From IMG/VR virus record IMGVR_UViG_3300022562_000410: a DNA stretch of 64,000 nt; one strand, written 5' to 3'. The position numbers and the translations under genes are program-made. Each line of letters starts with the position of its first letter. Positions within the stretch are counted from its first letter, which is position 1. The DNA is from an uncultured virus (IMG/VR IMGVR_UViG_3300022562_000410). Taxonomy: Duplodnaviria > Heunggongvirae > Uroviricota > Caudoviricetes. Of the stretch, positions 1-22,635 are shown in pieces. The notes beneath the pieces are model-generated. The model made no database searches. It saw only the letters and a list, made by a program, of their open reading frames with translations, and was not told the origin of the DNA.

Positions 1-3000
1 CGCTACGGTTATGAGCGCCGGGTCGAGGGCTGCGTCGATCCATTCACCGGCAAGGTCTATCTCGTATCCGGCAACATCGGCGACATGCCGACCATCCACC
101 GGGTGTTCGTCGAGGAATCGCTGGGTCACCACGGGCTGCGTGGCTTCTTCGGTAGTGAGTTCGACAACTTCCTTGATGAGATCATCCCCAACATCGAGGG
201 CAGTGATGCATGGAACGCCCTGCTGCGCGACTACAAGCACGTCGGTCGGTTAATCGCAAACAAGAATACGAGTCAGAGAGGAAGGCGGCTGGCGGCAGAA
301 GAGCTGCTGGCCAAGATGGATGTCGATCAGAACGTCTGGCAGAAGTTCGTCGCATGGGTGCGGAGCTGGCTGCGTTCCAGAGGGCTGATCACCAACTACA
401 CCGAGCAGGACCTGCGCCGGATCATGACGCAGGTTCACAACCGGATCATCAACGGCACGACCCCCCACCCATGGGGTGCCCGCAACCACCGACCATCGTA
501 CGCCGGAGCAGCGCCGTTCTCGATCCGGGCGTGGCACGGCTCACGCCACGAGTGGTACACCCCGAGGCTGGCTAAGGCCGGAACAGGCGAGGGCTTCAAT
601 GCCTTCGGCTGGGGGTTCTATGTAGCTGAGAATCGAGACGTTGCCGAGTACTACAAACTCTCGGGGATGGCGTCCGACCCCAGACTTTACCGGAAGATGC
701 TTGACACCAATGGGAACCACTTCAGGGAGTGGGACAATTCACCAGCCGCTGGCATCGCTGAGAATCTGTTCTACGATGCTGACGGAGATTACAACAAGGT
801 CCGTTCGATCCTTTCTTCTGCTTCTGGTGGGCAGCAGGCCCCGAAGTCGGCAGGACTTCGTAGAGAGGTTCTGGACATAATCACTCAGTGGGAAGCTGCC
901 GGAATAACACTGGAGGAGGCAAAGCCGGAGCCTGAGGGCAACATCTACGAGGTCCATATCGACGACGGGGTCGCTGCCAACATGTTGCTCTGGGAGTCCC
1001 CTCTCGAAGATCAGCCAGACGTCGTCAAAGCAGCAATCGAGAGTAACGAATGGGTGAAGCGCAAGCTGGCTTCATGGCGGATGAGCTTTGGTGGTCCCGC
1101 GATCAACGGTGAGGCGATCTACAAGGCCTTCGCGCAGGCACCCAGCGAGGGTATGTCTGAGAACCAACAGGCAGCGTCCGAAGCGCTGGCTGCGCTGGGG
1201 GTGACCGGGGTCAAATACTACGATGCAATCTCCCGGCCTATCGCTCGGGCGGCAAGGCGGGCGGCTGGTGGCCTGATCGGTCCACTGGCTAGTGCGATCA
1301 AGGGTGAGGAGGAAGCCAAGCCTCAGTACAACTACGTACTCTTCAACGAGAAGGACATCAACGTCGTGTCACGTAACGGCACGCCGTTTTCCATCAAGAC
1401 CAAAGGCCACATCAATGGCACTGGCCTGCGCGGCCATAGCGCTGGGGAGCACTACCCACTGATGGTGATCGGGCTGGGTAACCCAAACTCCCCAGTGGAT
1501 TCCCCAGACGCCCTCAAGTGGGCTGTACAGCGCCCAGACGGCTCGATAGAGGAGGAGCGGTTCGAGACCCCCGGTCAGGCACAGAAACGCGCTCAGGAGC
1601 TTGCTGAGGAGCTTTCGACGGTCCCCTTCTCGATTCTCCCCGACCCGGAATACGCTGAACGGTACCCGCATCCTGCAGAGCCGGAGGTTGGAGTTAATGA
1701 GAAAGGCAAGCCGTATCTGAAAAAAGGGAGTACCCCGGAGAGCGAGCGTTTCATGGAAGCTCGCGCCCGGATCATTGATCAGATCAAGCAGGAGGGCTTC
1801 GACCCCTACTTCGATCCTGCCCAGCGATATGATGTCGATCCCCAATATTACCCAACCCAGATCGAAACACTGGAAGCCAAGCCGGTGCAGGCCAAAGTGT
1901 TGGCCAAGTGGCGACGGAAGATCAAGACGCCAAGCGCTAAACGTCGGCTGCAGGAGGCCTATGACATGGGAGTCTTGCAGGGCTTCCATGATGGCTGGTA
2001 CAAGATGGGCCAGCTCGAAGCTGAGTTCATGAAAGAGTACGGCCCTGAGGATGGCCGGAGGATGTTTCAGGAACGCTTTCTCAATGCCATGGCGGCGACC
2101 ACTGCTGGTAACCGACCGGCCCAGAACTTCCTGATCGCCATGTACCTAAACTACCTGACGAACTTGGGCTTGCCGCTGCCAGAGGAAAGCCACCAGTTTC
2201 CGTCTCCATTGGGGACGCCTCGTGGCGCTCTCAATGTGAAGTCTTATAAGGACCTGATGGCTGAGGCACGGTGGCGGATTACTCAACCCAAGAGTCACAA
2301 CTTTGCCGCCAACTTCGCTGGCCATGAGCGCATGGCTACGATTGATTCCCAGATTGGTGAGATTGTCACTGGTAAAGCCAAGGGCGAGCTACAGAGAATC
2401 CTGCAGAATCGCTACGGAATCTTCGAAGAACTAGTCGTTCAGATGGCTGAGGAGAACGGGGTGTCACCACGCGAATTCCAAGAGGTGGCGTGGGGCGGCT
2501 ACAAGTACATGAAGGAGGGTTATACCGGCACACCGATGATCCAGATCGTCAACGAGGCGATCGAGCGCACATCGAGGATCACCGGGGCTTCACCCGAAGA
2601 GGTGGTCCGTCGCGGCATAGTCCGCAATGAGATGCCGATTTACTCCTTGCGTCGGCCCAGAGGAGTAGACGACGAACTGCGGATCGTCAACGAGAAGATC
2701 GCCCGGTCGTTCAGTGAGATGACGCTGGTTGACCGGGTCACCCACTGGTTCCATCAGATTCGCGATGCCATGGCCGCTGGTGATTTTATCTGGGGCCTGA
2801 AGCAAGGCGTGCTTGATGACGCTGCCGTAGTCGAGCGCTACGAGAAAGAGCTGTTCGGCGACCTGCAGGATGCGGCGATCTCTCCGTACAAGGCGATTCA
2901 TGCCACCAAGAACCTCGCTTCCGTAATGGCGGCGATCTCCAAGGTGGGTGTTCCAGAATATCGCAACGGAACTTTCGTCCCGGCGCAAGGACGCAAGGGC

Positions 3001-5409
3001 TTTATCGAAATCTTCCGGCCCCTGTTTGAGCATTCTGATGGCGATCTGCTGGAACTGTGGGAAGGCTATGCGGCAGCACGTCGTTCCCAACGCCTGATCC
3101 AAGAGACCAACCCGGACGGTACCAGTCGGGAGAAACTGTTCACGCAAGAGGAGATCAACAAGCTGTTGGCGCTGGAGCAGCGCTACCCCGAGTTCAAGGA
3201 CGTGTTCGACGACTGGACCGAGTTCAACAACCAGCTCCTCGATCTGGCGGTTGAGCAGGGGGTTATCAGTGAGGCTGAGCGTGAGGCATGGACGAAGTAC
3301 GACTACATTCCATTCTACCGGGCCATGGAGGAGATCGAAGGCATCGATCAGCGCACCGGCTGGGGTCGCGTCAAGGCTGGCATCGAGGGACAGAAGTACT
3401 TCGGTCGTCGTCTGAAGGGTGGTGAGCAGAAGCTGGCCAATGTGATCGAGAACATGTGGTTCAACACTGCCAGCATGGTCGACAAGATTTACAAGAACCA
3501 AGCAATGAACCGGGTCGTCGATATGCTCGAAGGCGTGGTCATGCACGAGATCGATATGCCGTGGGAGGCCGTCAGGATCACCAATGGCCAGCTCGCTTCC
3601 GCACTGAAGAGCGCGGGGCTGTTATCGAAGACCAACCAAACGCCGTTGCAGCAGGTTCAGGCCATGACTGCCGAGCAGCGCATGCAATGGAATAAGGTCT
3701 TCCGGCGCGTCCGTCCCACGGCACCAAATGTGGTGGCCGTCTCTCGTGAAGGTCGGCTGGCTTACTTCGAGGTGACCGATGAACTACTGCTAAGAACCCT
3801 GCAGGGGATGACAGCAGAGGGACTTGTCGGCTTCATGAAAGCGATGGGTTGGTCAAAGCACTTGCTTACCCGAATGGTCACACTGGACCCGGCCTTCATG
3901 GTCGCCAACTGGATGCGCGATACGCTGTCGGCATGGGTGACTTCCGATGCCAACTTCATCCCAGTTCTGGACTCGATCCGATCTGGGGGAGACGTCTTCA
4001 CCGAGAGCGGCAGCTACATCCAGATGATGATGTCTGGCCATGGTGGCGGTGGCTTCTATGATCTGACCGGAGGCAATGTCAGCCGGGTTCTAAAGGAAGA
4101 GCTGGCGCATGGTGGTCGGCACTGGGCACACAAGGTCTGGAACGGTTATATGAAGCTGGGCGCAGCCTCCGAGAACTCGAACCGTTTGGCGATCGCCAAC
4201 CGCATTCTGAAGAAGGGTGGCTCGGTTGCCGAAGCGATGTATCAGGCTCAAGATATTATGAACTTCACGATGTCGGGTGACTACGCCGCCATCAAGTTCC
4301 TGATCCGCACAGTGCCCTTCATGAACGCTCGCCTGCAGGGTCTCTATCGCCTCTACCGTGGCGCTAAGCAGCACCCGGTCGGGTTCATCGCCAAGGGCAT
4401 GGCGGTGGCCGCTGCGACGCTGGCATTGCTGGCTCGTAACTGGGATGACCCGGACTATGAGCGGCTGGAAGGGTGGCAGAAGGATACCAACTGGAACTTC
4501 TTCATTAACGGCTTCCACTATGCGCTGCCGAAACCGTTTGAGGTGGGTGTGATCTTCGGTTTGTTGCCGGAGCGAATTGCCCGAGCCCTGCTGGGCCGTG
4601 ATGACATGAAAGACTCACGGGATTCGCTGCTGCGAGCCATCGGCAGCACCTTTGCTTTTAATCCAGTCCCCCAGCTATTCAAACCAATCCTCGAACAGAT
4701 GATGGACTACAACTTCTTCATGGGTTCGCCGATCGTGGGGCAATCACTGGCCGGGTTGGAGCCTGCCGCCACCCATCTGCAGTACAACCCATGGACCTCC
4801 GAGGCTGCGGTCAAGTTGGGCGCGGCGATGCCGGACTGGATGGGTAAGCTGCGCTCACCACGCCGCATCGAGCATCTGGTTCGTGCCTACACCGGCACTA
4901 TGGGTCTGTACACTCTGAACGCGATCGACTGGATGATTCGTAGTGTCGACAAAGATCAGCCAGAGCCTCCAACCACGTACTGGTACGAACGGCCCGTGTT
5001 CTCCCGGTTCCTTAAGGGTGAGGCCAAGAGCGCCAAGTACAACAAGTACACCCAGCAACTCTATGACGTGATCGACGAATCGAACTCGGCGCAGCAGGCT
5101 TTCAACCTGTTAGCAGAGCAGGGGCGTAGGGATGAGGCGGTGGAAATCTACAAGAAGTTCGCTCCGCTAGTCGACCCGAGCGGTAAGGCTACTGAGGGTT
5201 CAGTTCGCAAGCAGCTCCTGCAGTACCAGTCAGCCATGCGCGAGATCAATAAGGCGCAGAGGGCGGTGATGACATCCAAGGAGCTGACCGGGGACCAAAA
5301 ACGAGAGCGCCTAGACCAGCTCCAGATGCGGCGTCACGAGATACTCGGGAACGCAGCCCACCTGCTGGAAATGATCGAAGATTTCGAGTTGCCAGAGCCT
5401 CAGCCATAG
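1..5409 (+). CDS. C-terminal part of giant polyvalent/DNA-ejection protein (5' truncated): metallopeptidase-like, ADP-ribosyltransferase-like, DUF7178/glycosylase-like and LPD38-like modules
   Basis: Frame is open from base 1 (RYGYERRVEGCVDPFTGKVYLV...), so the listed start at 85 is internal. Motifs: EESLGHHGLR; AWHGS...GTGEGFNAFGWGFY...YNYVLFNE; WY...MAATT...PKSHNF...TIDSQ...QEVAW; C-terminal VPFMNARLQGL, LPKPFEVGVIFG, PILEQMMDYNFF. Confidence 0.85.
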   Translation, partial: RYGYERRVEGCVDPFTGKVYLVSGNIGDMPTIHRVFVEESLGHHGLRGFFGSEFDNFLDEIIPNIEGSDAWNALLRDYKHVGRLIANKNTSQRGRRLAAEELLAKMDVDQNVWQKFVAWVRSWLRSRGLITNYTEQDLRRIMTQVHNRIINGTTPHPWGARNHRPSYAGAAPFSIRAWHGSRHEWYTPRLAKAGTGEGFNAFGWGFYVAENRDVAEYYKLSGMASDPRLYRKMLDTNGNHFREWDNSPAAGIAENLFYDADGDYNKVRSILSSASGGQQAPKSAGLRREVLDIITQWEAAGITLEEAKPEPEGNIYEVHIDDGVAANMLLWESPLEDQPDVVKAAIESNEWVKRKLASWRMSFGGPAINGEAIYKAFAQAPSEGMSENQQAASEALAALGVTGVKYYDAISRPIARAARRAAGGLIGPLASAIKGEEEAKPQYNYVLFNEKDINVVSRNGTPFSIKTKGHINGTGLRGHSAGEHYPLMVIGLGNPNSPVDSPDALKWAVQRPDGSIEEERFETPGQAQKRAQELAEELSTVPFSILPDPEYAERYPHPAEPEVGVNEKGKPYLKKGSTPESERFMEARARIIDQIKQEGFDPYFDPAQRYDVDPQYYPTQIETLEAKPVQAKVLAKWRRKIKTPSAKRRLQEAYDMGVLQGFHDGWYKMGQLEAEFMKEYGPEDGRRMFQERFLNAMAATTAGNRPAQNFLIAMYLNYLTNLGLPLPEESHQFPSPLGTPRGALNVKSYKDLMAEARWRITQPKSHNFAANFAGHERMATIDSQIGEIVTGKAKGELQRILQNRYGIFEELVVQMAEENGVSPREFQEVAWGGYKYMKEGYTGTPMIQIVNEAIERTSRITGASPEEVVRRGIVRNEMPIYSLRRPRGVDDELRIVNEKIARSFSEMTLVDRVTHWFHQIRDAMAAGDFIWGLKQGVLDDAAVVERYEKELFGDLQDAAISPYKAIHATKNLASVMAAISKVGVPEYRNGTFVPAQGRKGFIEIFRPLFEHSDGDLLELWEGYAAARRSQRLIQETNPDGTSREKLFTQEEINKLLALEQRYPEFKDVFDDWTEFNNQLLDLAVEQGVISEAEREAWTKYDYIPFYRAMEEIEGIDQRTGWGRVKAGIEGQKYFGRRLKGGEQKLANVIENMWFNTASMVDKIYKNQAMNRVVDMLEGVVMHEIDMPWEAVRITNGQLASALKSAGLLSKTNQTPLQQVQAMTAEQRMQWNKVFRRVRPTAPNVVAVSREGRLAYFEVTDELLLRTLQGMTAEGLVGFMKAMGWSKHLLTRMVTLDPAFMVANWMRDTLSAWVTSDANFIPVLDSIRSGGDVFTESGSYIQMMMSGHGGGGFYDLTGGNVSRVLKEELAHGGRHWAHKVWNGYMKLGAASENSNRLAIANRILKKGGSVAEAMYQAQDIMNFTMSGDYAAIKFLIRTVPFMNARLQGLYRLYRGAKQHPVGFIAKGMAVAAATLALLARNWDDPDYERLEGWQKDTNWNFFINGFHYALPKPFEVGVIFGLLPERIARALLGRDDMKDSRDSLLRAIGSTFAFNPVPQLFKPILEQMMDYNFFMGSPIVGQSLAGLEPAATHLQYNPWTSEAAVKLGAAMPDWMGKLRSPRRIEHLVRAYTGTMGLYTLNAIDWMIRSVDKDQPEPPTTYWYERPVFSRFLKGEAKSAKYNKYTQQLYDVIDESNSAQQAFNLLAEQGRRDEAVEIYKKFAPLVDPSGKATEGSVRKQLLQYQSAMREINKAQRAVMTSKELTGDQKRERLDQLQMRRHEILGNAAHLLEMIEDFELPEPQP

Positions 5410-5726
5410 TCTCCCCCTTTTCCCTGCATGGGCAGGCGCGGCCCAGAGGCAGGTACTCAGCGTTCCCATGCGCGTATGCAGGTCGAGGCGGTCGGGGGTG
5501 GGACCGTGGCTCCTCTCTATCTCGTTTCGCAGGCTGCTTCTCTGAGGGGCAACGACAGTCGACGTTCGCGAACTCACAGCGCCTCGGGCTGGCGGAACGA
5601 GAGAGACACAAGATGTTGTGTATTAGGTGGAATTACGTAGCACTAGATAGCAAGCTGTGATATATTAGCCACGTAGTCATCTATCGTTTCGCAGCGTCGA
5701 TACTACGCCCATCGGATGGGCTTGTG

Positions 5727-5760
5727 AAGCCCCCCAACTCCTCGGGGGGTTTCCTTTTTC
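5727..5760 (+). terminator. Intrinsic terminator
   Basis: AAGCCCCCC-aactcctc-GGGGGGTTT hairpin followed by CCTTTTTC. Confidence 0.65.
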
Positions 5761-5771
5761 TGGGAACCCCG

Positions 5772-5780
5772 TGCTACACT
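5772..5780 (+). promoter_or_regulatory. Putative extended -10 promoter for the sRNA
   Basis: TG-C-TACACT just after the upstream terminator; GGGAAC half-site at 5762..5767. Confidence 0.5.
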
Positions 5781-5786
5781 TCAGCT

Positions 5787-5874
5787 TGAACGGCTTCATC
5801 CAACGAGACGTTCAGTCTTCATCTCCTTTGTTGATGGAAGGACGAAGCCCTCGGAGAAATCCGGGGGCTTTTTC
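5787..5874 (+). ncRNA. Predicted antisense sRNA of three hairpins; loop 2 is anti-RBS
   Basis: TGAACG/CGTTCA stem; GTCTTCATC-TCCTTTGTT-GATGGAAGGAC stem-loop; terminator. 5821..5836 is complementary to the RBS motifs at 5937..5950 and in the leftward operon. Confidence 0.65.
5846..5874 (+). terminator. Intrinsic terminator
   Basis: AGCCCTCGGA-GAAA-TCCGGGGGCT-TTTT. Confidence 0.85.
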
Positions 5875-5900
5875 TATTCTCACCCCCTGAGAATTCCCCC

Positions 5901-5929
5901 TGTTACTGTGAACACAGTTCCCCTATAAT
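5901..5929 (+). promoter_or_regulatory. Putative recT operon promoter with operator-like palindrome
   Basis: Perfect TATAAT at 5924..5929 with weak -35; GTGAAC-ACA-GTTCCC at 5908..5922. Confidence 0.6.
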
Positions 5930-5957
5930 GGGTGGGTCAACAAAGGAGGTAAGTGTC

Positions 5958-6980
5958 ATGAGGCAAGAGTTGGTTGAGGTCAAGAATGAACTCGGGCGCG
6001 GCGGAGCGTTGTGCAAGGAGTTCAACCGGGTCAAGATGCGCGACGATCAGAACTGGCGCATCGAGATGTTCTACGCGCTGGAGGCCATGGAGAAATCCAA
6101 GGCGCTGCAGGACTGCGAGCCATCGAGCATTGGCCGCTGCATCATCGACGTCGGCACCATGGGCCTGTCCCTGAGTCCGGCGAAGAAGGAGGCCTACCTG
6201 ATCCCGTACCAGATCAAGGTTGGGCCGAATAAGAGAATCTACCGGGCTGAGCTGAGCATCAGCTACATGGGGATGGAGCAGATCGCGTACCGAACGGGGT
6301 TCGTGGAGCTGATCCAGACCAACGTGGTCCGGGCTGGCGATAAGTGGAAGCTCTGGGCGGATGAGGATGGTCGCCACATCGAGCACGTGGAGGGCCCGGA
6401 GCGCGGCTCCGTACTACTGGCCTACTGCATCGTTAAGCTCTCCTCAGGAAGGACGTACATTGAGACGATGACCAAGGAAGAGCTGTTGGAGGTCAGAAAG
6501 GCAGCGACCAAGAAGAACGGCGACAAGATACCGTTCACATGGACCGGGCCGTTCCGGGTCGAGATGTACAAGAAGTCGGTGCTGCGGAGGGCATGGAAGA
6601 ACCTTCCGAGGTCTGAGAATCCGCGCCTGTTAGCTATGATGGAGGCCGTGGACCGGGCCGACAAGATCGAGTTCAAGCGTGAAGACGAAAACGTCGTGCG
6701 TGAGGACCCATTCATCGATGGTGATCATCTCTCAGAATTAGTTGAGATGATGGCTGACGCAGAGGTCCCAAAAAAGAAGTATGGTGCGATCCTCGCGGGT
6801 TTGGCTAAATCTATGGGCTACCCCGGAGGCATCCGATCCCTGCCGAAATCTGAGTTCGAAGCTGCGAGAGGAGAGCTACTCAAAGTTGTTGAGAGGTTCA
6901 GAAAATGGCAGCAGTCGCAGACATCACCCCAATCCGGCTCCGAGCAGGGCGATACTACGCAACAGGCGGAGGCGACCTAG
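5958..6980 (+). CDS. recT: RecT-family single-strand annealing recombinase
   Basis: GLSLSPAKKEAYLIPY, ISYMGMEQIAYRTG, EMYKKSVLRRAWKNLP; AAGGAGGT SD before ATG 5958. Confidence 0.88.
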   Translation: MRQELVEVKNELGRGGALCKEFNRVKMRDDQNWRIEMFYALEAMEKSKALQDCEPSSIGRCIIDVGTMGLSLSPAKKEAYLIPYQIKVGPNKRIYRAELSISYMGMEQIAYRTGFVELIQTNVVRAGDKWKLWADEDGRHIEHVEGPERGSVLLAYCIVKLSSGRTYIETMTKEELLEVRKAATKKNGDKIPFTWTGPFRVEMYKKSVLRRAWKNLPRSENPRLLAMMEAVDRADKIEFKREDENVVREDPFIDGDHLSELVEMMADAEVPKKKYGAILAGLAKSMGYPGGIRSLPKSEFEAARGELLKVVERFRKWQQSQTSPQSGSEQGDTTQQAEAT

Positions 6981-7207
6981 TGTTCATCCAGCGGGTTGAA
7001 GGCTTGGTCGCGCATGGCATCTTCATCGCCGGTCATGCCTTTGCCCACTGGTATGTGGACGGTCGGTTCATCACTACGGAAAACAACCAGCCGTCCGACT
7101 TCGACATCAACAGTGAGGTGAAAGGCCATGAAGGAAGGAGTTTTTACAGGAATACCCAACGAGGTGTATCACGCGGATCGTACGGCGGTTTCGTCAACGT
7201 GGGTTAA
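6905..7207 (+). CDS. Hypothetical protein overlapping both neighbours
   Basis: GAGAGG SD; fills the gap between recT and the exonuclease gene. Confidence 0.5.
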   Translation: MAAVADITPIRLRAGRYYATGGGDLVFIQRVEGLVAHGIFIAGHAFAHWYVDGRFITTENNQPSDFDINSEVKGHEGRSFYRNTQRGVSRGSYGGFVNVG

Positions 7208-7994
7208 GCTCATCAACGAGAAAACGCCGTGGCACCTGCGGAGCTACCTCGACTCGCCACCGGCAGACCCCACCCCTGCCCTCGTTATGGGGGCAGCGGT
7301 GGACTGTCTCATCTTCGAGCCAAAGATGTGGGACAGGCAGTTCATCATCCACCCTGTAATCAACCGGCGCACGAACGCCGGGAAGGAGGAATGGGCCGCG
7401 CTGGAGGCTCGGGCGAAGAAGGAGCACAAGTACCTGATCGACGAAGCCAAGCGGGAGGAGGCGATGCTGACTGCCAAATCGGTCAGGACCAACCCCCGGA
7501 TGGCGGATGTCCTGAAGCGTGGGGTTGCTCAGCAGGTGGTCGTCTGGCGCGATCCCGTGACCGGCCTGCTGTGTAAGTGCAGGACCGACTGGTACGATAA
7601 GAAGGACCAGACGATCTATGACCTAAAGGCCATGCTCGATGCCAGCCCTGATGGCTTCTCTCGGGCGGTCCATAACTTCAGCTACCACATTCAAGCAGCG
7701 TTCTATTGGGATGGGTACCTGACGGCTGGATTGCCCGTTAAGCGATTCGTTTTTGGGGTGCAAGAGAAGCCTGACAACAGGAACACATTCGTTGCTGACC
7801 CCCGGCTGATGAGCTGGTACACCCTGACCTTGAAGGACATCGAGGCTGGGCAGGACAGCTACACGTCGGCGTTGGCAGCGATCAACGCCTGCATGGAGAA
7901 CGAGGAGTGGCCGGGTTACTCGAACGAGATCATCGAGATCACCCGCCCGCCGTGGGCCAAGCGCACCGATATCGACGACGTGGTTGCGCTGTGA
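7128..7994 (+). CDS. Exodeoxyribonuclease VIII (RecE-like) PD-(D/E)XK exonuclease
   Basis: YHADRTAVSST, LCKCRTDW, IYDLK, YHIQAAFY; adjacent to recT. Confidence 0.88.
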   Translation: MKEGVFTGIPNEVYHADRTAVSSTWVKLINEKTPWHLRSYLDSPPADPTPALVMGAAVDCLIFEPKMWDRQFIIHPVINRRTNAGKEEWAALEARAKKEHKYLIDEAKREEAMLTAKSVRTNPRMADVLKRGVAQQVVVWRDPVTGLLCKCRTDWYDKKDQTIYDLKAMLDASPDGFSRAVHNFSYHIQAAFYWDGYLTAGLPVKRFVFGVQEKPDNRNTFVADPRLMSWYTLTLKDIEAGQDSYTSALAAINACMENEEWPGYSNEIIEITRPPWAKRTDIDDVVAL

Positions 7995-9562
7995 GCTTCA
8001 TCCTTCGCGATTTTCAGGCCCGTAACAAGGCCAACATCAGGAACCTGTTCAGGAAGGTCAGGAGCGTGCTCTATGTGGCCCCAACAGGTTCCGGCAAGAC
8101 CGTTACAGCCGCCTCGATCATCGAGGCGGCTAACGCCAAGGAGACCTGCACATGGTTCGTAGCGCACAGGCGTGAATTGATCGAGCAGGCCTCGGAAACG
8201 CTCTGGAAGTCAAACGTCAGGAACGGCATTCTGATGGCTGGTTACAGATACGAGCCGCATCTCCCAGTGCAAGTATGTGGCATAGATACCCTGCGATCCC
8301 GGCTGCTGAATGACAACAAGTTGGTGCTCGTACGTTCACCGACATTTCTGGTGATTGACGAGGCTCATCGCAGCCTTGCCCGGACTTACCTGAAGCTGTT
8401 CGAGCGATTCCCGAACGCCTTTCGGCTGGGCCTGACCGCTTCTCCGGTCCGGTCCGATGGCAGAGGACTGGGCCACGTGTACGATGCCCTCGAATTAGCC
8501 CCGTCAGTGGCCGAGCTGATTGAGCAAGGGTGGCTGGTCAGGCCACGCTATTTCACTGGGGAGTGTGCCGAGCTGACAGGTATAAAAACACAGGATGGTG
8601 ACTACGCCCCCGGCGAGCTGGAAATCCGGTACAACCGGGCCGATTTGCGCGGGGATGTCGTGGAACAATGGCTGCGCTTGGCCAATGGGCGCAAGACCAT
8701 CGTGTTTGCCACAGGAGTCCGCCATAGTTTGGCACTAGCAGAGGACTTCAACGCTCGCGGCATCCCCGCTTTTCACCTTGATGGCAGTACCAATAAGTAT
8801 CTCCGCATGGACCAGTTCGATGAGTTCAGGCATAGCGACAAGTGGAAGGTGCTGGTCAATTGCAACATTGCCACCGAGGGTGTGGATGTTCCCGAGGTTG
8901 GCTGTGTCCAGATGGCCACAGCCACCAAGATCATCTCACGCTACATCCAGATGGGCGGCAGGGGGCTTAGGACCTGTGAGGAGATTGGTAAGCAGGACTG
9001 CATCATTATCGACCATGGCGAGAACATCAAACGCCACGGCTTTCTCGAAGACCCGATCCCATGGTCGCTGGATACCAACGGTCGTTTACAGGATCGCCTC
9101 CCGGCAGTGCGTGACAAGTTGCCGAGGATATTCGTCTGTGTGAACTGTGGCCACACCTTCAGCGGCCAGCTTCGCTGTCCTGAGTGCCGAACCAGATTGG
9201 AGATACAACCACACCACGAGCTGATCAGCACGCCAGAGGACCTGATCCAAGTGACCCGTGGCGCAGCCGGGATCGAGGTGGCGGATAAGCAGCGGACGTA
9301 CTCAGAGGTCCAGCGCCGGAACTTCTATGCCCAGCTCCTCGGCTACTGCAAGGAGAAGGGCTACAAGTATAACTGGGCTGATCACAAGTTCAGGGCCAAG
9401 TTCGGTGAGTGGCCACCGTGGCCAATGACCTCAATCATTCCTCAGCGCCCCACTGATCTGGTCACTGCTTATTGCCATGGCCAACAGGTGGCTTGGCGCA
9501 TCCGTAATCGCAAGCGCAAACAGAAGGAGCAGCAGGCAAATGGGCAAGCCGACGCTAGGTGA
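7991..9562 (+). CDS. SF2 DEAH helicase with C-terminal zinc ribbon
   Basis: APTGSGKT, IDEAH, GLTASP, QMGGRGLR, CVNC..CPEC; GTG start overlaps upstream stop. Confidence 0.92.
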   Translation: MSFILRDFQARNKANIRNLFRKVRSVLYVAPTGSGKTVTAASIIEAANAKETCTWFVAHRRELIEQASETLWKSNVRNGILMAGYRYEPHLPVQVCGIDTLRSRLLNDNKLVLVRSPTFLVIDEAHRSLARTYLKLFERFPNAFRLGLTASPVRSDGRGLGHVYDALELAPSVAELIEQGWLVRPRYFTGECAELTGIKTQDGDYAPGELEIRYNRADLRGDVVEQWLRLANGRKTIVFATGVRHSLALAEDFNARGIPAFHLDGSTNKYLRMDQFDEFRHSDKWKVLVNCNIATEGVDVPEVGCVQMATATKIISRYIQMGGRGLRTCEEIGKQDCIIIDHGENIKRHGFLEDPIPWSLDTNGRLQDRLPAVRDKLPRIFVCVNCGHTFSGQLRCPECRTRLEIQPHHELISTPEDLIQVTRGAAGIEVADKQRTYSEVQRRNFYAQLLGYCKEKGYKYNWADHKFRAKFGEWPPWPMTSIIPQRPTDLVTAYCHGQQVAWRIRNRKRKQKEQQANGQADAR

Positions 9563-9998
9563 TCTGGAAAGGCTCCTTTCAAGCCAAGACGTTTTGATCT
9601 CGTTGTGGAAAAGGGTTTCCGAGTTGAGCCAAGCAAACGATGATCTGGTGGTGGAGAACTTGGATTTGCAGCGCAAGGTGGATGAGCTGGAGCAGTGGAA
9701 GAAAGATGGCAAGCCCCATCGTCCCACCCCGTTCACCAGCTACCTCGATTGCTTCGAGGCGGTGCTTAATGGTGCGACATTGTCTGACGCAGCGAAACCG
9801 TTTCGCTTCAGTGGACCATGGGCAAAGTCTGCGATCTGTCGGTGTGTTCGGGTGTTGCCCCGCTTGCTTGACTCCCCCCGAGCATGGGGCTATGCGAGCG
9901 AGAGCGGCAGGATCACGGTTCGGGCGGTTCGCAGTAACAAGGATTTCTGGTTAACCATGATCAATGAGTACAGAGAGAAGGAGTTGAGTAATGGATAG
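9540..9998 (+). CDS. Hypothetical protein (coiled coil, possible HTH)
   Basis: AAGGAG SD upstream; operon packing. Confidence 0.55.
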   Translation: MGKPTLGDLERLLSSQDVLISLWKRVSELSQANDDLVVENLDLQRKVDELEQWKKDGKPHRPTPFTSYLDCFEAVLNGATLSDAAKPFRFSGPWAKSAICRCVRVLPRLLDSPRAWGYASESGRITVRAVRSNKDFWLTMINEYREKELSNG

Positions 9999-10434
9999 AT
10001 ACCAAGTTTCAGAGAGCGCCAACGGCCCGTGGATCGAGCTGGTGGTAACCAACAACCCGGCGCAGGCACTGGCCAAGGCGCGGGCCAGCTTTGACTGGCC
10101 GATCATCTGGGTGGCGAAGATGCGCCCGATTATGGGCGTGGACCTGCTGCCGCCTTCCGAGGTGTTCTGGGCCGACACGATGGAGCGCATGGCGATTCTG
10201 TATGGCAACACCACGGTCGACGAGTTGGAGCCCCTAATGAGTGAGCAGACCTTTGAGTACCTCTCTACGGCCCTCACAGGCGCTCTGCTGGATGCGGAGG
10301 TGGAAATCCTTGCCCCAGATGTGAAACGGGCGTATGGGGCAGATCAGGCGGTCAAGGCCACTGATTTTCTCGAAGACGGCCCCGAGATTCAGAAGCTGAA
10401 GCGGAAACCAAGCCTGAAGGAGCTGCTGGGATGA
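9991..10434 (+). CDS. Hypothetical protein
   Basis: AAGGAG SD; overlaps with neighbours. Confidence 0.65.
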   Translation: MDRYQVSESANGPWIELVVTNNPAQALAKARASFDWPIIWVAKMRPIMGVDLLPPSEVFWADTMERMAILYGNTTVDELEPLMSEQTFEYLSTALTGALLDAEVEILAPDVKRAYGADQAVKATDFLEDGPEIQKLKRKPSLKELLG

Positions 10435-10649: not shown

Positions 10650-10798
10650 GAAGGAGAGCAATCGGAAGCGCATGCCGAACGTGGCCGACCTGATCGACGA
10701 GATCAGAGAAGCTAATCCCAGCCTGACCTTCAAAGTAATTGCTGCGGAGGACTTCGAGACTGGGGTCAAGGTCGGACAGTTTGAGGAGGAACGAGAGC

Positions 10799-17880: not shown

Positions 17881-17901
17881 AGCAAATCTCCTCTGTTGAT
17901 G

Positions 17902-17967
17902 TGACCTATCTCATCAGTGGCGGTAGGTCAGCTCCGCCAGACCCCGGTCCTCAGCCGGGGTTTCGAT
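17902..17967 (-). ncRNA. Hammerhead ribozyme A (type II, pseudoknot)
   Basis: AUC-GAAA-CCCCGG[CUGAGGA]CCGGGG-UC^-UGGCGG[AGCUGACCUA]CCGCCA-CUGAUGA-GAU-AGGUCA; predicted cut 17940/17939. Confidence 0.93.
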
Positions 17968-18567
17968 TCACACAATGGCGCTGTCCAGAGCTTCCGTGAT
18001 GGTGGATTTCGCTTCATCGATGTAGCTCTGAAGCTCTTCCTTCCGGCGCTCTTCTTCATCGCGCTCGTGCTGAGCTTTGTTGGCTTCCCAGTCGTTGAGG
18101 TCGGACTGATAGTCCTCGTCGTCGTCATAGTCTTCCGGGTCCGGTTCGGGTTCGTCGAACTCTTCTTCGTCGAAGTCGAATTCATCGATGTAGTCCAGCT
18201 CGCTCTCGACGTTGTCCAGCGCGTCGACGCGCTCCTGCAGCAGCTCACCCGTGGGCGAGTACTGGAGCGACTCGGGCATGTTGTCCAGACTGGACTGCGT
18301 CTCGTCGCGCAGGTCCTCGATCTGGCTGCGAACCTCGTCGACTAGCGTTTCCATGTCAGTCGGGTCCTCAAGCTCAAAGTCTTCGACATACTCCTGCAGA
18401 CTGTAGACGCTGCTGAAGTATGCAGACTGTGTGAGCTGGGAGTTGCGGGGCCGGGTCTTCGAGTAGCGCTTCCCGCCGTAGCGGAACTTCCACCAGAAGT
18501 ACGGCTCACCTGCCTTGACGGCTGGGTTGTCCTTGCGGGCCTTTTTCACGTAATGAACACGTGGCAT
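17968..18567 (-). CDS. Hypothetical protein with basic N-terminus and very acidic C-terminal half
   Basis: Likely start MPRVHY at 18567 after AGAGGAG; DEFDFDEEEFDEPEPDPEDYDDDEDY. Confidence 0.8.
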   Translation of the reverse strand: MPRVHYVKKARKDNPAVKAGEPYFWWKFRYGGKRYSKTRPRNSQLTQSAYFSSVYSLQEYVEDFELEDPTDMETLVDEVRSQIEDLRDETQSSLDNMPESLQYSPTGELLQERVDALDNVESELDYIDEFDFDEEEFDEPEPDPEDYDDDEDYQSDLNDWEANKAQHERDEEERRKEELQSYIDEAKSTITEALDSAIV

Positions 18568-18590
18568 GGTGTATCTCCTCTGTTGATGAT

Positions 18591-18658
18591 GATCCTGTCT
18601 CTTCAGAGTGGGTAGGATCGGATTCCCACTGACCCCGGTCCTCAGCCGGGGTTTCGAC
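18591..18658 (-). ncRNA. Hammerhead ribozyme B (type II, pseudoknot)
   Basis: GUC-GAAA-CCCCGG[CUGAGGA]CCGGGG-UC^-AGUGGG[AAUCCGAUCCUA]CCCACU-CUGAAGA-GAC-AGGAUC; predicted cut 18631/18630. Confidence 0.93.
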
Positions 18659-18659
18659 A

Positions 18660-19448
18660 TTACCCTTCCCAGTCGTCAGCCGTGATGGCGGGCTTCTGGG
18701 GCACGAACCCGGTGACACGGTCCATGAGATCATGGAGGCGGATCGTCCGGGGCATCAACTCGATCAGCGACACGCCCTTGTTGGCGGGCTTCAGGGCCTC
18801 GGTGGCGGCGTTGAACATGCGCCATGCGGTCTGCTCGCCGTGGTCGTAGGACGGCTCGTCCCACTCCTGCACGACCTTACCGACCCGGCTGGGGTTGATC
18901 ACCTCGGACCGCAGCATGTCGACGATGATGTGGTCGGCCTGCCGCTTGTCCTTGATCCGGTACTCGCGATAGTGCTCCCAGCGGGCCTCCTGATTGACCT
19001 TGTAGAGCTGGGTCTGGTTGACCGCATTGCCGATCAGGTCAGGCAGGTCGCGCATGATGTGGACCGTGTGCTTGCGGCTGAAACGAATCTCAGCCGAGAA
19101 CGCAAGGTTGTCACACACGAAGACGTGTGAGCCGAAGCCCATCGCAGCCGGGAAGCTCTTGTCGATCGAGTTCCGAATGCCGACGACCAGCGCGAACTCT
19201 TCCTGAACTGAGCTTCCATTCAGAAGCTCGATCAGGCCGAAGTACCGGGCCTTGTCGTGGGTCAGGCTGTGCGCCTGATTGCCGAAACGAAAGCCCATCG
19301 CCTGCAGCCGCTCTTCGGCCATATCCACGACGGTCTGGTGACCGACCGGAAAGTAGGTGTCCGTAGCCGGAGGCAGGACGATTCCTTCAAGCTCTTCGCG
19401 CTCGACGTGGCTGGCACCGCAGTGCAGCATAAGGTTTGCTCTTGCCAT
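18660..19448 (-). CDS. DUF932-family protein
   Basis: TYFPVGH, GIRNSIDKS, VFVCDNLAF, RKHT, TAWRMFNAATE. Confidence 0.8.
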   Translation of the reverse strand: MARANLMLHCGASHVEREELEGIVLPPATDTYFPVGHQTVVDMAEERLQAMGFRFGNQAHSLTHDKARYFGLIELLNGSSVQEEFALVVGIRNSIDKSFPAAMGFGSHVFVCDNLAFSAEIRFSRKHTVHIMRDLPDLIGNAVNQTQLYKVNQEARWEHYREYRIKDKRQADHIIVDMLRSEVINPSRVGKVVQEWDEPSYDHGEQTAWRMFNAATEALKPANKGVSLIELMPRTIRLHDLMDRVTGFVPQKPAITADDWEG

Positions 19449-19474
19449 GGTAGTTCTCCTCTGTTGAAGTGTGT

Positions 19475-19536
19475 TTGGCAGTCTCTTCAGACCCGGAATG
19501 CCAATCCGGGTGACGCCCCCTCCGGGGCGTTTCGAC
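19475..19536 (-). ncRNA. Hammerhead ribozyme C (type II, pseudoknot)
   Basis: GUC-GAAA-CGCCCC[GGAG]GGGGCG-UC^-ACCCGGA[UUGGCAU]UCCGGGU-CUGAAGA-GAC-UGCCAA; predicted cut 19512/19511. Confidence 0.93.
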
Positions 19537-19628
19537 TAGTGTGTGAACAGATAGCCAAGGCTCAGCCAGATGGCCGAGTAGGCAGCGATGGCAGCGTAGG
19601 CTTGGGCAAGCGGGATGCGGTATTTCAT
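19536..19628 (-). CDS. 30-aa single-TM microprotein, not in ORF track
   Basis: MKYRIPLAQAYAAIAAYSAIWLSLGYLFTH; GAGGT SD; ATGA overlap; stop abuts hammerhead C. Confidence 0.7.
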   Translation of the reverse strand: MKYRIPLAQAYAAIAAYSAIWLSLGYLFTH

Positions 19629-19837
19629 GATCCCACCTCACAAGCCTTCAGGAAGCGCTCACGATCGAAGTTGGGGTTCTCGTGGCGGAAGTAGTCCGCC
19701 AGCGCTCCAGCCATCGACCTGCGAGTGGCCTCAGCACCCTTCTTAAAACCGGGTGTCAGGTACTTATCATCAGGATCGAACTTGCGATCACGAACGATGC
19801 TTGCGATAGCCTCGAAATGCTTGCGCGTCATGCTCAT
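19625..19837 (-). CDS. Small phage protein (70 aa)
   Basis: MSMTRKHFEAIA...NPNFDRERFLKAC; AGAGGAG SD after hammerhead D. Confidence 0.8.
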   Translation of the reverse strand: MSMTRKHFEAIASIVRDRKFDPDDKYLTPGFKKGAEATRRSMAGALADYFRHENPNFDRERFLKACEVGS

Positions 19838-19855
19838 GTTGGTCTCCTCTGTCGG

Positions 19856-19922
19856 TGGCAGTCTCATCAGTATCGGAATGCCAATCCGATATACCTGCCC
19901 CTCCTCTAGGACAGGTTTCAAC
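19856..19922 (-). ncRNA. Hammerhead ribozyme D (type II, pseudoknot, GUA site)
   Basis: GUU-GAAA-CCUGUCC[UAGAGGAG]GGGCAGG-UA^-UAUCGGA[UUGGCAU]UCCGAUA-CUGAUGA-GAC-UGCCA; predicted cut 19892/19891. Confidence 0.9.
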
Positions 19923-19997
19923 GATGGCCGGGATTAACCCACACCGGCAGGGTCCGTTCACCCTCCCGGCACTAGAAGCCGGGAGGGTTTGCGGTAG

Positions 19998-20486
19998 CTA
20001 TACAGCTTCACGCTTGGTGGCTTCGTCACCAGTGGCGATCTTCAGGGTGAAGTGGAACCCACGGCGCTTCTTCGCCGGGGTGGCTTCGGACTGCGTGTAG
20101 CGAACCGTGTCGATGTATTCGACCAGATCGTCGTCCAGATCAGGCACGAAGTTCCTGATCTTGTAGTGAGCCTCGGGCGGCAGGTAGACCTTGTAGATGC
20201 AGTAGCCTTGCGGCTGCATCGTACGAGCATTCATATCACGCTCTTCCTGCAGGCGCTGGCACTCCCTGAGAGAGGCATGTGTCTGCCAGTAGGCAGCGCT
20301 GCTGGTGAAGAAGTGGTACTCACGCTTGCGATCTTTTCTCCAGCGGTCCTCGCGGAAGCTAGAGATCACTTCGAGGCAATCCTCGAAATCATCAGCCGTG
20401 GCGTCACTGCCAGACTGGCGCAGATCGGGGATCAAGGTTTCACGCAGATGGGTGACCAGTGCGTAGATATTGTCGAAGCTATGCAT
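19998..20486 (-). CDS. Hypothetical protein, first gene of the leftward operon
   Basis: AGAGGAG SD after hammerhead E. Confidence 0.75.
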   Translation of the reverse strand: MHSFDNIYALVTHLRETLIPDLRQSGSDATADDFEDCLEVISSFREDRWRKDRKREYHFFTSSAAYWQTHASLRECQRLQEERDMNARTMQPQGYCIYKVYLPPEAHYKIRNFVPDLDDDLVEYIDTVRYTQSEATPAKKRRGFHFTLKIATGDEATKREAV

Positions 20487-20508
20487 TTCGTTCTCCTCTG
20501 TTGATGGG

Positions 20509-20575
20509 TGGCCTGTCTCATCAGAGCGGGTAGGCCATCTCCCGCTGACCCCGTCGTGGTGACCGGGGTTTCAAC
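20509..20575 (-). ncRNA. Hammerhead ribozyme E (type II, pseudoknot)
   Basis: GUU-GAAA-CCCC(G)GUC[ACCAC]GACGGGG-UC^-AGCGGG[AGAUGGCCUA]CCCGCU-CUGAUGA-GAC-AGGCCA; predicted cut 20547/20546. Confidence 0.92.
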
Positions 20576-20848
20576 AATCAGAGGAGGAGATTGTTGAGTA
20601 GGGCGAGTCGTTACCTTCTGTCCCCGAGCGGTTTACGGCTTGCTCCGCTTGCCTCGGGAAGGTCGCTACTACCAACGTCGCTTCTACAGGTTCCTGCTGA
20701 CATTCGCCTTTCGGCCAAGTGGTCAGACTACGCAGCGTCTTCCCGTCCCCAGTTTCACCGAGTGGGTCTCGTCGAAGTCTTGGCTTCGCTTCCCCGGCCA
20801 GTGCCAGATGGGGGCTGTGGGCCGTGGTCACGTCCTGTGACAGCTCCC

Positions 20849-20877
20849 ACTTTAGGGGAACCCAGTTCCCATGTCAA
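20849..20877 (-). promoter_or_regulatory. Leftward sigma70 promoter with palindrome in the spacer
   Basis: TTGACA-17 nt-TAAAGT; spacer holds perfect GGGAAC-N3-GTTCCC (20856..20870). Confidence 0.85.
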
Positions 20878-22222: not shown

Positions 22223-22635
22223 GGCAAGAGCTGCCAGTCGCGATCGAGAGGCTGAGGGTCCAGCCACCCGAGTTTCCACGTACCGCTCAAGGTAGCCTGT
22301 ACGGTGCGTTCTACTGGCCGGAGAAGAAGATTTACATCATCTCCTCTGGTTCAGGTCCTGAGGCAGGCGGCTGGGAGCACGTCAGTGTGTCGCATGCCAA
22401 GCGCACACCGACATGGGATGAGATGTGCCGGGTCAAGGATGCCTTCTGGGGTGAGGATGAGACTGTGGTCCAGTTCCACCCGAGAGCATCCGAGTACGTC
22501 AACCTGCATCCCCACACGCTGCACCTCTGGAAGCGCACTGATGGGGACTACACGTTACCGCCTCACCTGTTCGTGGGGCCAAAGTCAACTGAGGAGAAAG
22601 GCAATGATGATGAATCCGAACATGACGCTGGCTGA
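22219..22635 (+). CDS. Conserved-looking His-rich phage protein
   Basis: WEHVSVS...PTWDEMCRVKDAFW...QFHP...YVNLHPHTLHLW. Confidence 0.75.
   Translation: MRQELPVAIERLRVQPPEFPRTAQGSLYGAFYWPEKKIYIISSGSGPEAGGWEHVSVSHAKRTPTWDEMCRVKDAFWGEDETVVQFHPRASEYVNLHPHTLHLWKRTDGDYTLPPHLFVGPKSTEEKGNDDESEHDAG

What the first reader, a model, noticed from the sequence alone, without database searches (positions are those of the whole stretch)
5787..5874. Candidate master antisense sRNA against the RBS shared by the ribozyme-linked genes and recT
Seen: a unit with an extended -10 (5772..5780), two hairpins and a strong terminator. Hairpin 2 carries AUCUCCUUUGUUGAUG (5821..5836), with UCCUUUGUU in the loop. It can form 16 bp (one G-U) with CAUCAACAGAGGAGAU downstream of hammerheads A and B, 15 bp at E, about 13 bp at C and fewer at D. 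It can also form 14 bp with UCAACAAAGGAGGU (5937..5950), the predicted 5' end and RBS of recT mRNA. Partial sites precede the RecE-like gene (7105..7119) and ORF 22604 (22585..22597). The pairing extends well beyond the SD core. Inference: one trans-acting sRNA silences the early and recombination regulon, which would explain the conserved leader and might substitute for a CI-type repressor.
Basis: partly seen in the sequence, partly recalled or inferred. Interest (0 to 1): 0.9.

Follow-up and report, generated by a model that had tools for sequence, protein, structure and literature searches.

The report
Phage small RNA matching early-gene leaders
A marine phage and its relatives seem to encode a small RNA whose exposed part is complementary to a short leader shared by several early genes, so one RNA could switch off their translation together.

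Summary
Positions 5772-5874 (+) hold an extended -10, two hairpins and a strong terminator, and 5821-5836 is complementary to the leader that follows five type II hammerheads and precedes recT.

Three related phages keep the same unit in the same place, upstream of recT: L117, L124 and L126/G003 (RecT 44-46% identical). Each copy has its own extended -10 and terminator.

The pairing part differs between phages and tracks each phage's own leader "box" next to the Shine-Dalgarno sequence:
- Window: CATCAACA.
- G003: CATCATCA.
- L117: CTATCAACAC.
- L124: ACAACATCAA.

Across five orthologous genes, the phage's own sRNA is the best predicted binder in 15 of 18 cases.

G003 has the sRNA and the shared leader but no hammerhead, so the ribozymes are an addition in the window's phage.

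I read this as a real trans-acting anti-RBS sRNA that probably represses early and recombination genes. It works like the P1/P7 c4 RNA but is not a member of that family.

Expression is untested. I found no support for it replacing a CI repressor: no lysogeny genes were detected, and palindromic operator-like sites sit in the early promoters.

The parts
5772..5780 (+). Extended -10 promoter of the sRNA (TGCTACACT)
   Evidence: Read. The positional equivalents are TGGTATATT (L117), TTGTATACT (L126) and TGCTACAGT (L124), each 6-8 nt before the 5' hairpin.
5787..5814 (+). Hairpin 1 of the sRNA (loop holds CCAAC; inner stem CUU/GAG)
   Evidence: Fold. A 5' hairpin is predicted in L117 and L126. 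The outer stems differ in sequence: GAACG/CGUUC, CCAUG/CAUGG, GAUGU/ACAUU. CCAACGAGAC is identical in the window, L117 and L126. The MFE fold of L124 does not show this hairpin.
5818..5838 (+). Hairpin 2 with the pairing segment AUCUCCUUUGUUGAUG (5821-5836; loop UCCUUUGUU 5824-5832): anti-SD followed by anti-box
5844..5874 (+). Intrinsic terminator of the sRNA (12-bp stem plus U-run)
   Evidence: GC-rich terminators with U7 runs are found in all three relatives.
5935..5950 (+). recT leader (box plus SD) at the predicted 5' end of recT mRNA. The -10 TATAAT is at 5924-5929 and the recT ATG at 5958.
   Evidence: own-leader duplex -31.5 kcal/mol; 2 of 1000 shuffled leaders reach it.
7105..7120 (+). 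Leader of the recE-like PDDEXK nuclease gene (CATCAACAGTGAGGTG; ATG 7128)
   Evidence: own sRNA is the best of four, -28.4; rank 6 of 78.
22585..22598 (+). Partial box-plus-SD leader of ORF 22604 (GTCAACTGAGGAGA)
   Evidence: rank 9 of 78.
20491..20506 (-). Leader after hammerhead E (CATCAACAGAGGAGAA; ATG 20486)
   Evidence: (-30.7, best non-self site).
19842..19857 (-). Leader after hammerhead D (CACCGACAGAGGAGAC; ATG 19837)
19454..19469 (-). Leader after hammerhead C (CTTCAACAGAGGAGAA; ATG 19448, DUF932 protein)
   Evidence: rank 12 of 78.
18573..18588 (-). Leader after hammerhead B (CATCAACAGAGGAGAT; ATG 18567)
17886..17901 (-). Leader after hammerhead A (CATCAACAGAGGAGAT; ATG 17880)
17900..20576 (-). 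Array of five type II hammerheads: 20507-20576, 19853-19923, 19473-19537, about 18591-18659 and 17900-17968. They cut the minus-strand early transcript into units that each begin with the shared leader.
   Evidence: Rfam searches report four of the five. The one at about 18591-18659 was seen only by eye.
20849..20877 (-). Promoter of the hammerhead operon (TTGACA, 17-nt spacer, TAAAGT) with the palindrome GGGAACTGGGTTCCC in the spacer

Best explanation
Positions 5787-5874 (+) encode an sRNA of about 88 nt with its own constitutive-type extended -10 promoter and its own terminator. The exposed segment in hairpin 2 is an anti-Shine-Dalgarno run (CUCCUUU) joined to a phage-specific 'anti-box' (GUUGAUG).

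I propose that this segment pairs in trans with a leader of the form box plus SD. The leader lies at the very 5' end of recT mRNA, before the recE-like gene and ORF 22604, and directly after each of five hammerhead ribozymes in the minus-strand early operon. Pairing would cover the ribosome-binding site and repress translation, and might also alter mRNA decay.

The hammerheads cut the polycistronic transcript into pieces that each start with the same leader. That would let one sRNA address every cistron.

What is shown: the sequence features, their conservation, and covariation of the pairing segment with the leader across phages.
What is inferred: that the sRNA is transcribed, that the effect is repression, and when it acts.
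For: 1. The anatomy and fold are confirmed: z = -3.96, 0 of 200 shuffles fold as well.
2. Complementarity is well above chance: 7 sites against 0.59 expected. The predicted targets are 7 of the 15 best non-self sites among 25,588 windows and take 8 of the top 12 ranks among 78 start regions once self-structure is counted.
3. Synteny holds. L117, L124 and L126/G003 (RecT 44-46% identical) keep the order: conserved block, sRNA1 unit, sRNA2 unit, recT promoter, recT. Each unit has an extended -10 and a U-run terminator. The relatives' units fold with z of -3.8 to -4.3.
4. For the recT leader, each phage's own sRNA is the best binder in every row and column of the 4x4 matrix. Shuffled leaders reach the observed energy in 2/1000 (window), 0/1000 (L117), 0/1000 (L126) and 71/1000 (L124) trials.
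5. The boxes are phage-specific:
   - ATCAACA forms 4 leaders out of 14 occurrences in the window.
   - ATCATCA forms 9 listed leaders, 8 of them distinct, out of 32 occurrences in G003. The window's box forms 1 of 20 there.
   - TATCAAC forms 3 of 6 in L117, and 0 of 6 and 0 of 9 in the window and G003.
   The pairing segments mirror these changes: UGUUGAUG, UGAUGAUG and GUGUUGAUAG.
6. Over the orthologous start regions of recT, the recE-like gene, the g17295-like gene, SSB and DUF932, own pairs average -23.0 kcal/mol (n = 18) and foreign pairs -16.5 (n = 54). The own sRNA is best in 15 of 18 columns.
7. The targets lie on both strands and far from the sRNA gene. Several have their own promoters, with the box starting within a few nucleotides of the predicted transcription start.
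8. No ORF is conserved on the minus strand. It reads as a four-codon ORF (MSRW then stop) in L117, about 34 codons in L126, and 40 codons without a usable SD spacing in the window.
Against: - There are no expression data of any kind for this phage or its relatives.
- Only three relatives could be reached, plus one tentative case (L204). The start regions within one phage share the same box, so they are not independent. The Mann-Whitney p of 3e-7 therefore overstates the support. At the level of whole phages there are only four observations.
- L124 is weak. Its recT pairing is not significant (71/1000), its MFE fold lacks hairpin 1, and its short pairing segment alone reaches -18 kcal/mol on none of its 25 called start regions.
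- Several non-initiation sites score as high as true leaders in the duplex scan, for example 35011(-) and 29276(-). Rank 1 in the cofold list is a box-less start region at 55677.
- Hammerheads A and B share an identical stem III. Their identical leaders may therefore partly reflect recent duplication rather than selection.
- RNAduplex energies ignore self-structure and allow large loops.
Confidence: 0.62

Rival explanations
1. The element acts only in cis on recT. The unit would be an upstream part of a long recT leader, made by read-through of its terminator, whose anti-SD sequesters the recT ribosome-binding site. The matches elsewhere would be side effects of a shared RBS context.
For: The unit lies directly upstream of recT, on the same strand, in all four phages. 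Its pairing with the phage's own recT leader covaries.
Against: A 10-12-bp GC-rich terminator with a U-run, followed by a separate recT promoter (a -10 in all four phages, and a -35 with 17-nt spacing in the three relatives), separates the unit from the recT leader. Distant genes on both strands, some with their own promoters, carry the same phage-specific box: g17295 orthologues, SSB in L117 and L124, and the hammerhead leaders.
Confidence: 0.1
2. The sRNA is real and pairs with the leaders, but the outcome is not repression. It might protect the 5' end of the mRNAs, open an inhibitory structure, or act mainly against co-infecting relatives or host mRNAs as an exclusion or take-over factor.
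For: The box begins at or near the predicted 5' end of primary transcripts, and right after the ribozyme in processed ones. Pairing would therefore cap the 5' end. The phage-specific segments resemble the heteroimmunity logic described for c4 (passages read in PMC12197685). The conserved loop CCAACGAGAC has no complementary site in any of the phage sequences searched, so a host partner is possible.
Against: In the window, G003 and L117 the duplex covers the SD itself. In known cases this blocks initiation (c4 and sar as described in PMC12197685 and PMC5320573; passages read).
Confidence: 0.15
3. It is a relic: an orphan copy of the minus-strand leader left by rearrangement, with no function as an RNA.
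For: The motif at 5821-5836 has the same (minus) orientation as all five hammerhead leaders. The window's phage is rearranged around this module compared with its relatives.
Against: There is no hammerhead remnant here, and no start codon at a usable distance (GGAGATG; the next ATG is 21 nt away). The + strand promoter, hairpin and terminator are conserved in relatives whose leaders differ, and the segment changes with those leaders.
Confidence: 0.04
4. The shared box is a protein-binding or translation-enhancing element, and the complementarity of the small RNA is incidental.
For: Conserved leader sequences next to the SD could equally serve a translational regulator protein. This is inference only; no call supports it directly.
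Against: It does not explain why a promoter-and-terminator-bounded unit carries the exact complement, or why that complement changes in step with the box in four phages.
Confidence: 0.05

Closest known systems
c4 antisense RNA of phages P1 and P7 (immI region; Rfam C4 family)
   Same: Both are small phage RNAs encoded on the same strand as their target and upstream of it. One exposed segment occludes the ribosome-binding site and a second gives specificity by pairing with upstream sequence. Sequence differences between related phages change the specificity (passages read in PMC5320573, and PMC12197685). The two-part pairing in L117 and L124 (hairpin-1 loop as anti-SD, tail as anti-box) resembles the a'/b' loops.
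   Different: There is no Rfam C4 match in 5350-6000, even at E up to 10. This unit has its own promoter and terminator, whereas c4 is cut out of the target's transcript by RNase P. It has many predicted targets on both strands rather than one operon. No lysogeny or antirepressor context was detected.
P22 sar RNA and lambda OOP RNA (cis-encoded phage antisense RNAs)
   Same: These are short phage RNAs that base-pair with a phage mRNA to block its expression (passages read in PMC12197685).
   Different: Those RNAs are transcribed from the strand opposite a single target and are fully complementary to it. Here the RNA is encoded elsewhere, pairs over 12-18 nt, and has several targets.
Tandem hammerhead ribozymes that flank genes in prophages (Perreault et al. 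2011, PMC3088659)
   Same: Several type II hammerheads lie between genes of one transcription unit, and the authors proposed that they process long phage transcripts into gene-length mRNAs (passages read). The pseudoknot they describe, between loop I and the 3' tail, can be drawn for the window's ribozymes just upstream of the box (by eye).
   Different: The passages I read do not mention a common leader after the ribozymes or an RNA complementary to it.
C-rich anti-SD sRNAs such as RsaE/RoxS
   Same: An sRNA loop complementary to SD sequences regulates several mRNAs (from my own recall of the literature). cmscan aligns CAUCUCCUUUGU to the RsaE consensus CAUCCCCUUUGU.
   Different: The RsaE hit scores 21.2 bits against a gathering score of 79, so this is not a member. 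RsaE is a host-encoded, conserved bacterial sRNA. The RNA here is phage-encoded and gains its specificity from the box.

Membership tests
Rfam C4 antisense RNA (P1/P7 c4) | Match to the family covariance model | tested here: not met
   cmscan of 5350-6000, both strands, at E up to 10 listed 12 weak hits. None was C4.
Rfam C4 antisense RNA (P1/P7 c4) | Processed by RNase P out of the same transcript as its target | not testable with these tools
   The sequence instead shows a separate promoter and terminator, which argues against this feature but does not test it.
Rfam C4 antisense RNA (P1/P7 c4) | Two exposed segments, one covering the RBS and one pairing upstream for specificity | tested here: met
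   The anti-SD and anti-box are contiguous in the window and G003, and split between the hairpin-1 loop and the tail in L117 and L124. This is a functional resemblance only.
Trans-acting base-pairing sRNA (general class) | Independent transcription unit (promoter and intrinsic terminator) conserved in relatives | tested here: met
   An extended -10 and a U-run terminator are present in 4 of 4 phages at the same position. Actual transcription is not tested.
Trans-acting base-pairing sRNA (general class) | Pairing segment and target sites covary | tested here: met
   The own sRNA is best in 15 of 18 orthologous start regions. The boxes are phage-specific. Only four phages were available, and L124 is weak.
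Trans-acting base-pairing sRNA (general class) | The RNA is detectable and regulates its targets | not testable with these tools
   No RNA data could be examined for this phage.
Hammerhead ribozyme type II (RF02276), for the target-linked ribozymes | Match to the covariance model at or above the gathering score (37 bits) | tested here: inconclusive
   Two of five are above it (49.6 and 38.1 bits) and two below (35.5 and 25.3 bits). The fifth was not reported at E up to 1 and was recognised by eye from GAAAC, GUC and CUGAAGAG.
RsaE/RoxS (RF01820) | Match to the covariance model at the gathering score (79 bits) | tested here: not met
   21.2 bits, E = 0.45.

The most novel reading that the evidence does not exclude
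This phage group may use an RNA address system. A short, phage-specific box next to the SD marks a set of early mRNAs, and one small RNA carrying the matching anti-box plus an anti-SD run controls them all. In the window's phage, five hammerhead ribozymes cut the early polycistronic RNA so that every cistron starts with the address. That would be a natural counterpart of the ribozyme insulators used in synthetic biology (a comparison from my own recall). Because pairing segment and box drift together between relatives, the pair would also decide which related phages can silence each other's early genes.
Probability: 0.35. Interest if true: 0.85.

Novelty: new variant of a known kind. Interest (0 to 1): 0.72.

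Why it matters
Phage antisense RNAs that block a ribosome-binding site are known, but each acts on one gene or one operon. A single phage sRNA that controls a whole set of early genes through a shared, co-evolving leader would be a regulon-scale translational switch in a virus.

Combined with ribozymes that give each cistron the same leader, it would also suggest a concrete job for the tandem hammerheads found in phage genomes. The passages of Perreault et al. 2011 that I read leave their role at "processing, other possibilities exist".

The system is small, sequence-defined and easy to test with reporter fusions and compensatory mutations. It could be reused as an orthogonal set of sRNA/leader pairs.

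Tried and rejected
Searches for relatives and records:
- megablast of window 1-25000 and blastn of 5410-5960 against the phage collection gave only an SSB fragment and terminator-like chance hits.
- RecT alone found nothing in viral contigs.
- The 15-nt leader pattern in viral contigs gave 116 or more single chance hits.
- Two block patterns in viral contigs returned only the three known relatives plus coding-sequence chance hits: 59 loci and 7 loci.
- Genome contigs gave nothing related with RecT. The block pattern there gave 14 chance hits with no related DNA or protein.
- A scan with the 75%-conserved protein g14378 returned 77 loci. blastn with the four intergenic modules matched only the two loci from the L117 and L124 contigs; none of the other 75 loci matched.
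- The CCAACGAGAC motif is absent from all other held loci, 1.44 Mb in total.
- G001 is the same phage as the window from position 18425 onward and lacks the sRNA region.

Expression:
- No RNA holder is listed for window 5000-7000. The only holder is a marine-sediment DNA run that may be the source of the contig, so I did not lay reads.

Readings considered and dropped:
- A hammerhead remnant at 5837-5900 on the minus strand: no Rfam signal.
- A minus-strand small ORF: not conserved.
- A target for the conserved loop CCAACGAGAC: no site in any of the four phages.
- Targets for sRNA1: nothing stands out (timed out).
- MAFFT alignments of the sRNA units (A2, A6) were not structural, so I did not run formal pair counts or build a covariance model.
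- The third palindrome, at 61874, lies in what looks like coding sequence and is probably chance.

Full report
**What the window is.** The window is most of a phage contig of about 66.5 kb (contig length), 57.7% G+C. The only sequencing run that holds it is a marine-sediment DNA run.
- It encodes an SU10-type portal and adaptor, a 1,774-aa polyvalent protein with an LPD38 domain (85-5409), RecT (5958-6980) and a DUF3799 PDDEXK nuclease (7128-7994).
- It also encodes helicases, SSB, RusA and a topoisomerase-like protein.
- Pfam and PHROGs detected no integrase or CI-like repressor among the roughly 80 proteins I scanned.

**The observation.**
- TGCTACACT (5772-5780) is an extended -10.
- 5787-5878 folds into hairpin 1, hairpin 2 (loop UCCUUUGUU) and a 12-bp terminator. 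The energy is -37.1 kcal/mol, z = -3.96, and 0 of 200 shuffles fold as well.
- The segment 5821-5836 is the complement of CATCAACAAAGGAGAT.
- Its near-copies lie on the minus strand at 17886, 18573, 19454, 19842 and 20491. That gives 7 sites with up to 3 mismatches against 0.59 expected; 0 of 100 shuffles reach 7.
- Each near-copy sits 4-6 nt before an ATG and directly after a type II hammerhead.
- Rfam reports four of the five hammerheads, two of them above the gathering score. I recognised the fifth only by eye.
- The recT leader (5935-5950) can form 15 consecutive pairs with the segment.
- In a duplex scan of 25,588 windows, the proposed targets are 7 of the 15 best non-self sites.
- In a cofold ranking that charges for self-structure, they take 8 of the top 12 places among 78 start regions. 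Rank 1 is an unrelated start region at 55677.

**Which strand matters.** The motif at 5821-5836 has the same orientation as the five leaders, so an orphan minus-strand leader was the obvious rival. I reject it for these reasons:
- The region has no hammerhead signal.
- On the minus strand the SD runs straight into an ATG followed by a stop three codons later, and the next ATG is 21 nt away.
- No minus-strand ORF is conserved in the relatives.
- The promoter and the U-run terminator are + strand features, and they are conserved.

**Relatives.** A RecT alignment (A1) retrieved three related phages:
- L117, from a 38-kb contig.
- L124, which is record G002 (16.9 kb).
- L126, which is record G003 (64,754 bp). 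Its 117-nt terminal repeat looks like a circular assembly overlap.

RecT is 44-46% identical to the window's, and the nuclease is 59-64% identical. All three relatives keep the same non-coding module upstream of recT:
- a conserved block of about 190 nt;
- a first promoter-and-terminator unit (sRNA1);
- a second unit at the place of the finding (sRNA2);
- a recT promoter.

The sRNA2 units have extended -10 elements (TGGTATATT, TTGTATACT, TGCTACAGT) and GC-rich terminators with U7 runs, and they fold with z of -3.8 to -4.3. The 5' hairpin is predicted in the window, L117 and L126 with different stem sequences and the shared loop sequence CCAACGAGAC. The MFE fold of L124 does not show it.

**Covariation.** The part between hairpin 1 and the terminator is not conserved in sequence. 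In each phage it is complementary to that phage's own leaders.
- For the recT leader, the own sRNA gives the best energy in every row and column of the 4x4 matrix. Shuffled leaders reach it in 2, 0, 71 and 0 of 1000 trials for the window, L117, L124 and L126.
- Each phage has its own box next to the SD on several genes:
  - ATCAACA in the window: 4 leaders of 14 occurrences.
  - ATCATCA in G003: 9 listed leaders, 8 distinct, of 32 occurrences, whereas the window's box gives 1 of 20 there.
  - TATCAAC in L117: 3 of 6, and none in the window or G003.
- The pairing segments carry the matching change. The window's UGUUGAUG and G003's UGAUGAUG differ by one base, mirrored by CATCAACA and CATCATCA.
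- Over the orthologous start regions of recT, the nuclease, a g17295-like gene, SSB and DUF932, own pairs average -23.0 kcal/mol (n = 18) and foreign pairs -16.5 (n = 54). The own sRNA is best in 15 of 18 columns.
- The three misses are the window's recT (a tie, lost by 0.1 kcal/mol), the window's SSB (which has no box) and L124's SSB (a tie, lost by 0.3 kcal/mol).
- In L117 and L124 the pairing is two-part: the hairpin-1 loop holds the anti-SD and the tail holds the anti-box. In the window and G003 the two are contiguous in hairpin 2.
- Several targets have their own promoters, and the box begins within a few nucleotides of the predicted start.
- These start regions are not independent within a phage. 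The real sample is four phages, and L124 is the weak one.

**Hammerheads are an add-on.** No hammerhead was found in the 48.7 kb fetched around recT in the relatives, or in the whole records G002 and G003 (0 of 2). G003 is complete yet has 8 box-bearing leaders and the sRNA. The sRNA-and-leader system is therefore the conserved feature. In the window's phage, the ribozymes would give each cistron of the minus-strand early operon (promoter at 20849-20877) its own copy of the leader. Tandem hammerheads flanking prophage genes, and the idea that they process long transcripts, are in print (PMC3088659, passages read). I did not see a shared leader or a matching sRNA mentioned in those passages.

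**Mechanism proposed.** The sRNA is made from a promoter that has no palindrome. It pairs through its loop with box plus SD, blocks 30S binding, and so lowers translation of recT, the nuclease and the hammerhead-linked genes. Because the box is at the 5' end of the mRNAs, an effect on decay is also possible. Transcription, direction of the effect and timing are all inferred.

**The CI idea.** The CI-substitute idea is not supported.
- I found no lysogeny genes.
- Both the recT promoter (5908-5922) and the hammerhead-operon promoter (20856-20870) carry GGGAACnnnGTTCCC in the spacer.
- The relatives have other palindromes at the same places (by eye).
- Together these point to a protein regulator acting alongside the sRNA.

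**Comparison with known systems.** The closest known system in how it works is the c4 RNA of P1 and P7.
- Similarities: it is encoded on the same strand upstream of its target, one loop covers the RBS and another gives specificity, and sequence differences underlie heteroimmunity (PMC5320573 and PMC12197685, passages read).
- It is not a family member: there is no C4 model match, the unit has its own promoter and terminator, and it has many targets.
- The weak RsaE-like hit (21.2 bits against 79) reflects only the shared anti-SD run.
- My literature searches turned up no phage sRNA with a regulon-wide shared leader. They covered only the held open-access library.

**Verdict.** It is very probably a functional phage sRNA directed at a shared early-gene leader, and so a new variant of phage antisense control. 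Expression and effect remain to be shown.

Noticed in passing
window 5415-5612 (L117 9505-9690; L126 586-785; L124 9490-9690): A non-coding block of about 190 nt begins 6 nt after the LPD38 stop codon and is the best-conserved DNA of the module (66-69% identical to L117/L126, and 79% between L117 and L126). It starts with CCCTTTTCCCTGCAT and includes GGCAGGTACTCAGCG. Consensus folds show compensatory pairs on either strand: + strand -31.1 kcal/mol with 9 of 41 pairs, minus strand -36.9 with 13 of 43. There is no Rfam match. The strand and the function are unknown.
   Followed up: partly
window 5658-5759 (+): A second sRNA-like unit (sRNA1) lies here. It has an extended -10 (TGATATATT), a structured body (z = -4.42) and the terminator GAAGCCCCCC..GGGGGGTTTC. 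Promoter and terminator are conserved in all three relatives, while the body varies. Duplex scans gave no clear target.
   Followed up: partly
window 5908-5922 and 20856-20870: The palindrome GGGAACnnnGTTCCC (one mismatch at 5908) sits in the spacer of the recT promoter and of the hammerhead-operon promoter. It is probably an operator for an unidentified protein regulator. The relatives have different palindromes (of the TGCA..TGCA type) at the equivalent promoters.
   Followed up: partly
window 20570-20600 (-): Just 5' of hammerhead E, the operon's 5' UTR contains CAACAAUCUCCUCCUCUGAUUGUUG, which resembles the sRNA's pairing segment. In the MFE fold of the uncleaved RNA, CCUCCUCU pairs with the SD of gene E across the ribozyme. 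Self-cleavage might therefore free that RBS.
   Followed up: partly
window about 18591-18659 (-): The fifth hammerhead (core GAAAC ... GUC ... CUGAAGAG) is visible by eye but was not reported by Rfam, even at E up to 1. Hammerheads A and B share an identical stem III, and C and D share the stem I loop UUGGCAU, which suggests the cassette has been duplicated.
   Followed up: no
window 85-16000 compared with L117, L124 and G003: Gene order differs around the module. In the relatives the helicase-SSB-g14378 block runs away from the module on the other strand, and the LPD38 gene converges on recT and the recE-like gene. In the window all of these are on the + strand, with LPD38 directly upstream of the block. 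One rearrangement breakpoint therefore coincides with the left edge of the conserved block.
   Followed up: no
L204 about 360-450 (minus strand of the locus): A more distant relative (g14378 71% identical) lacks the block and recT in the fetched part but has two terminator-ended units next to its helicase gene. The second unit holds GGUAGUUCUCC, complementary to GGAGAACUACC just before the ATG of three genes (13272-, 11622-, 11406-). These rank 6th, 7th and 9th among the non-self sites of 11,880 windows scanned. It may be a fifth case with a different pairing register.
   Followed up: partly
G003 (reverse-complement coordinates) about 55625-55640 (-): The DUF932 leader of G003 has no CATCATCA box. 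It does carry ACUGACUAA, a perfect 9-nt complement of the linker UUAGUCAGU between hairpins 1 and 2 of that phage's sRNA.
   Followed up: no
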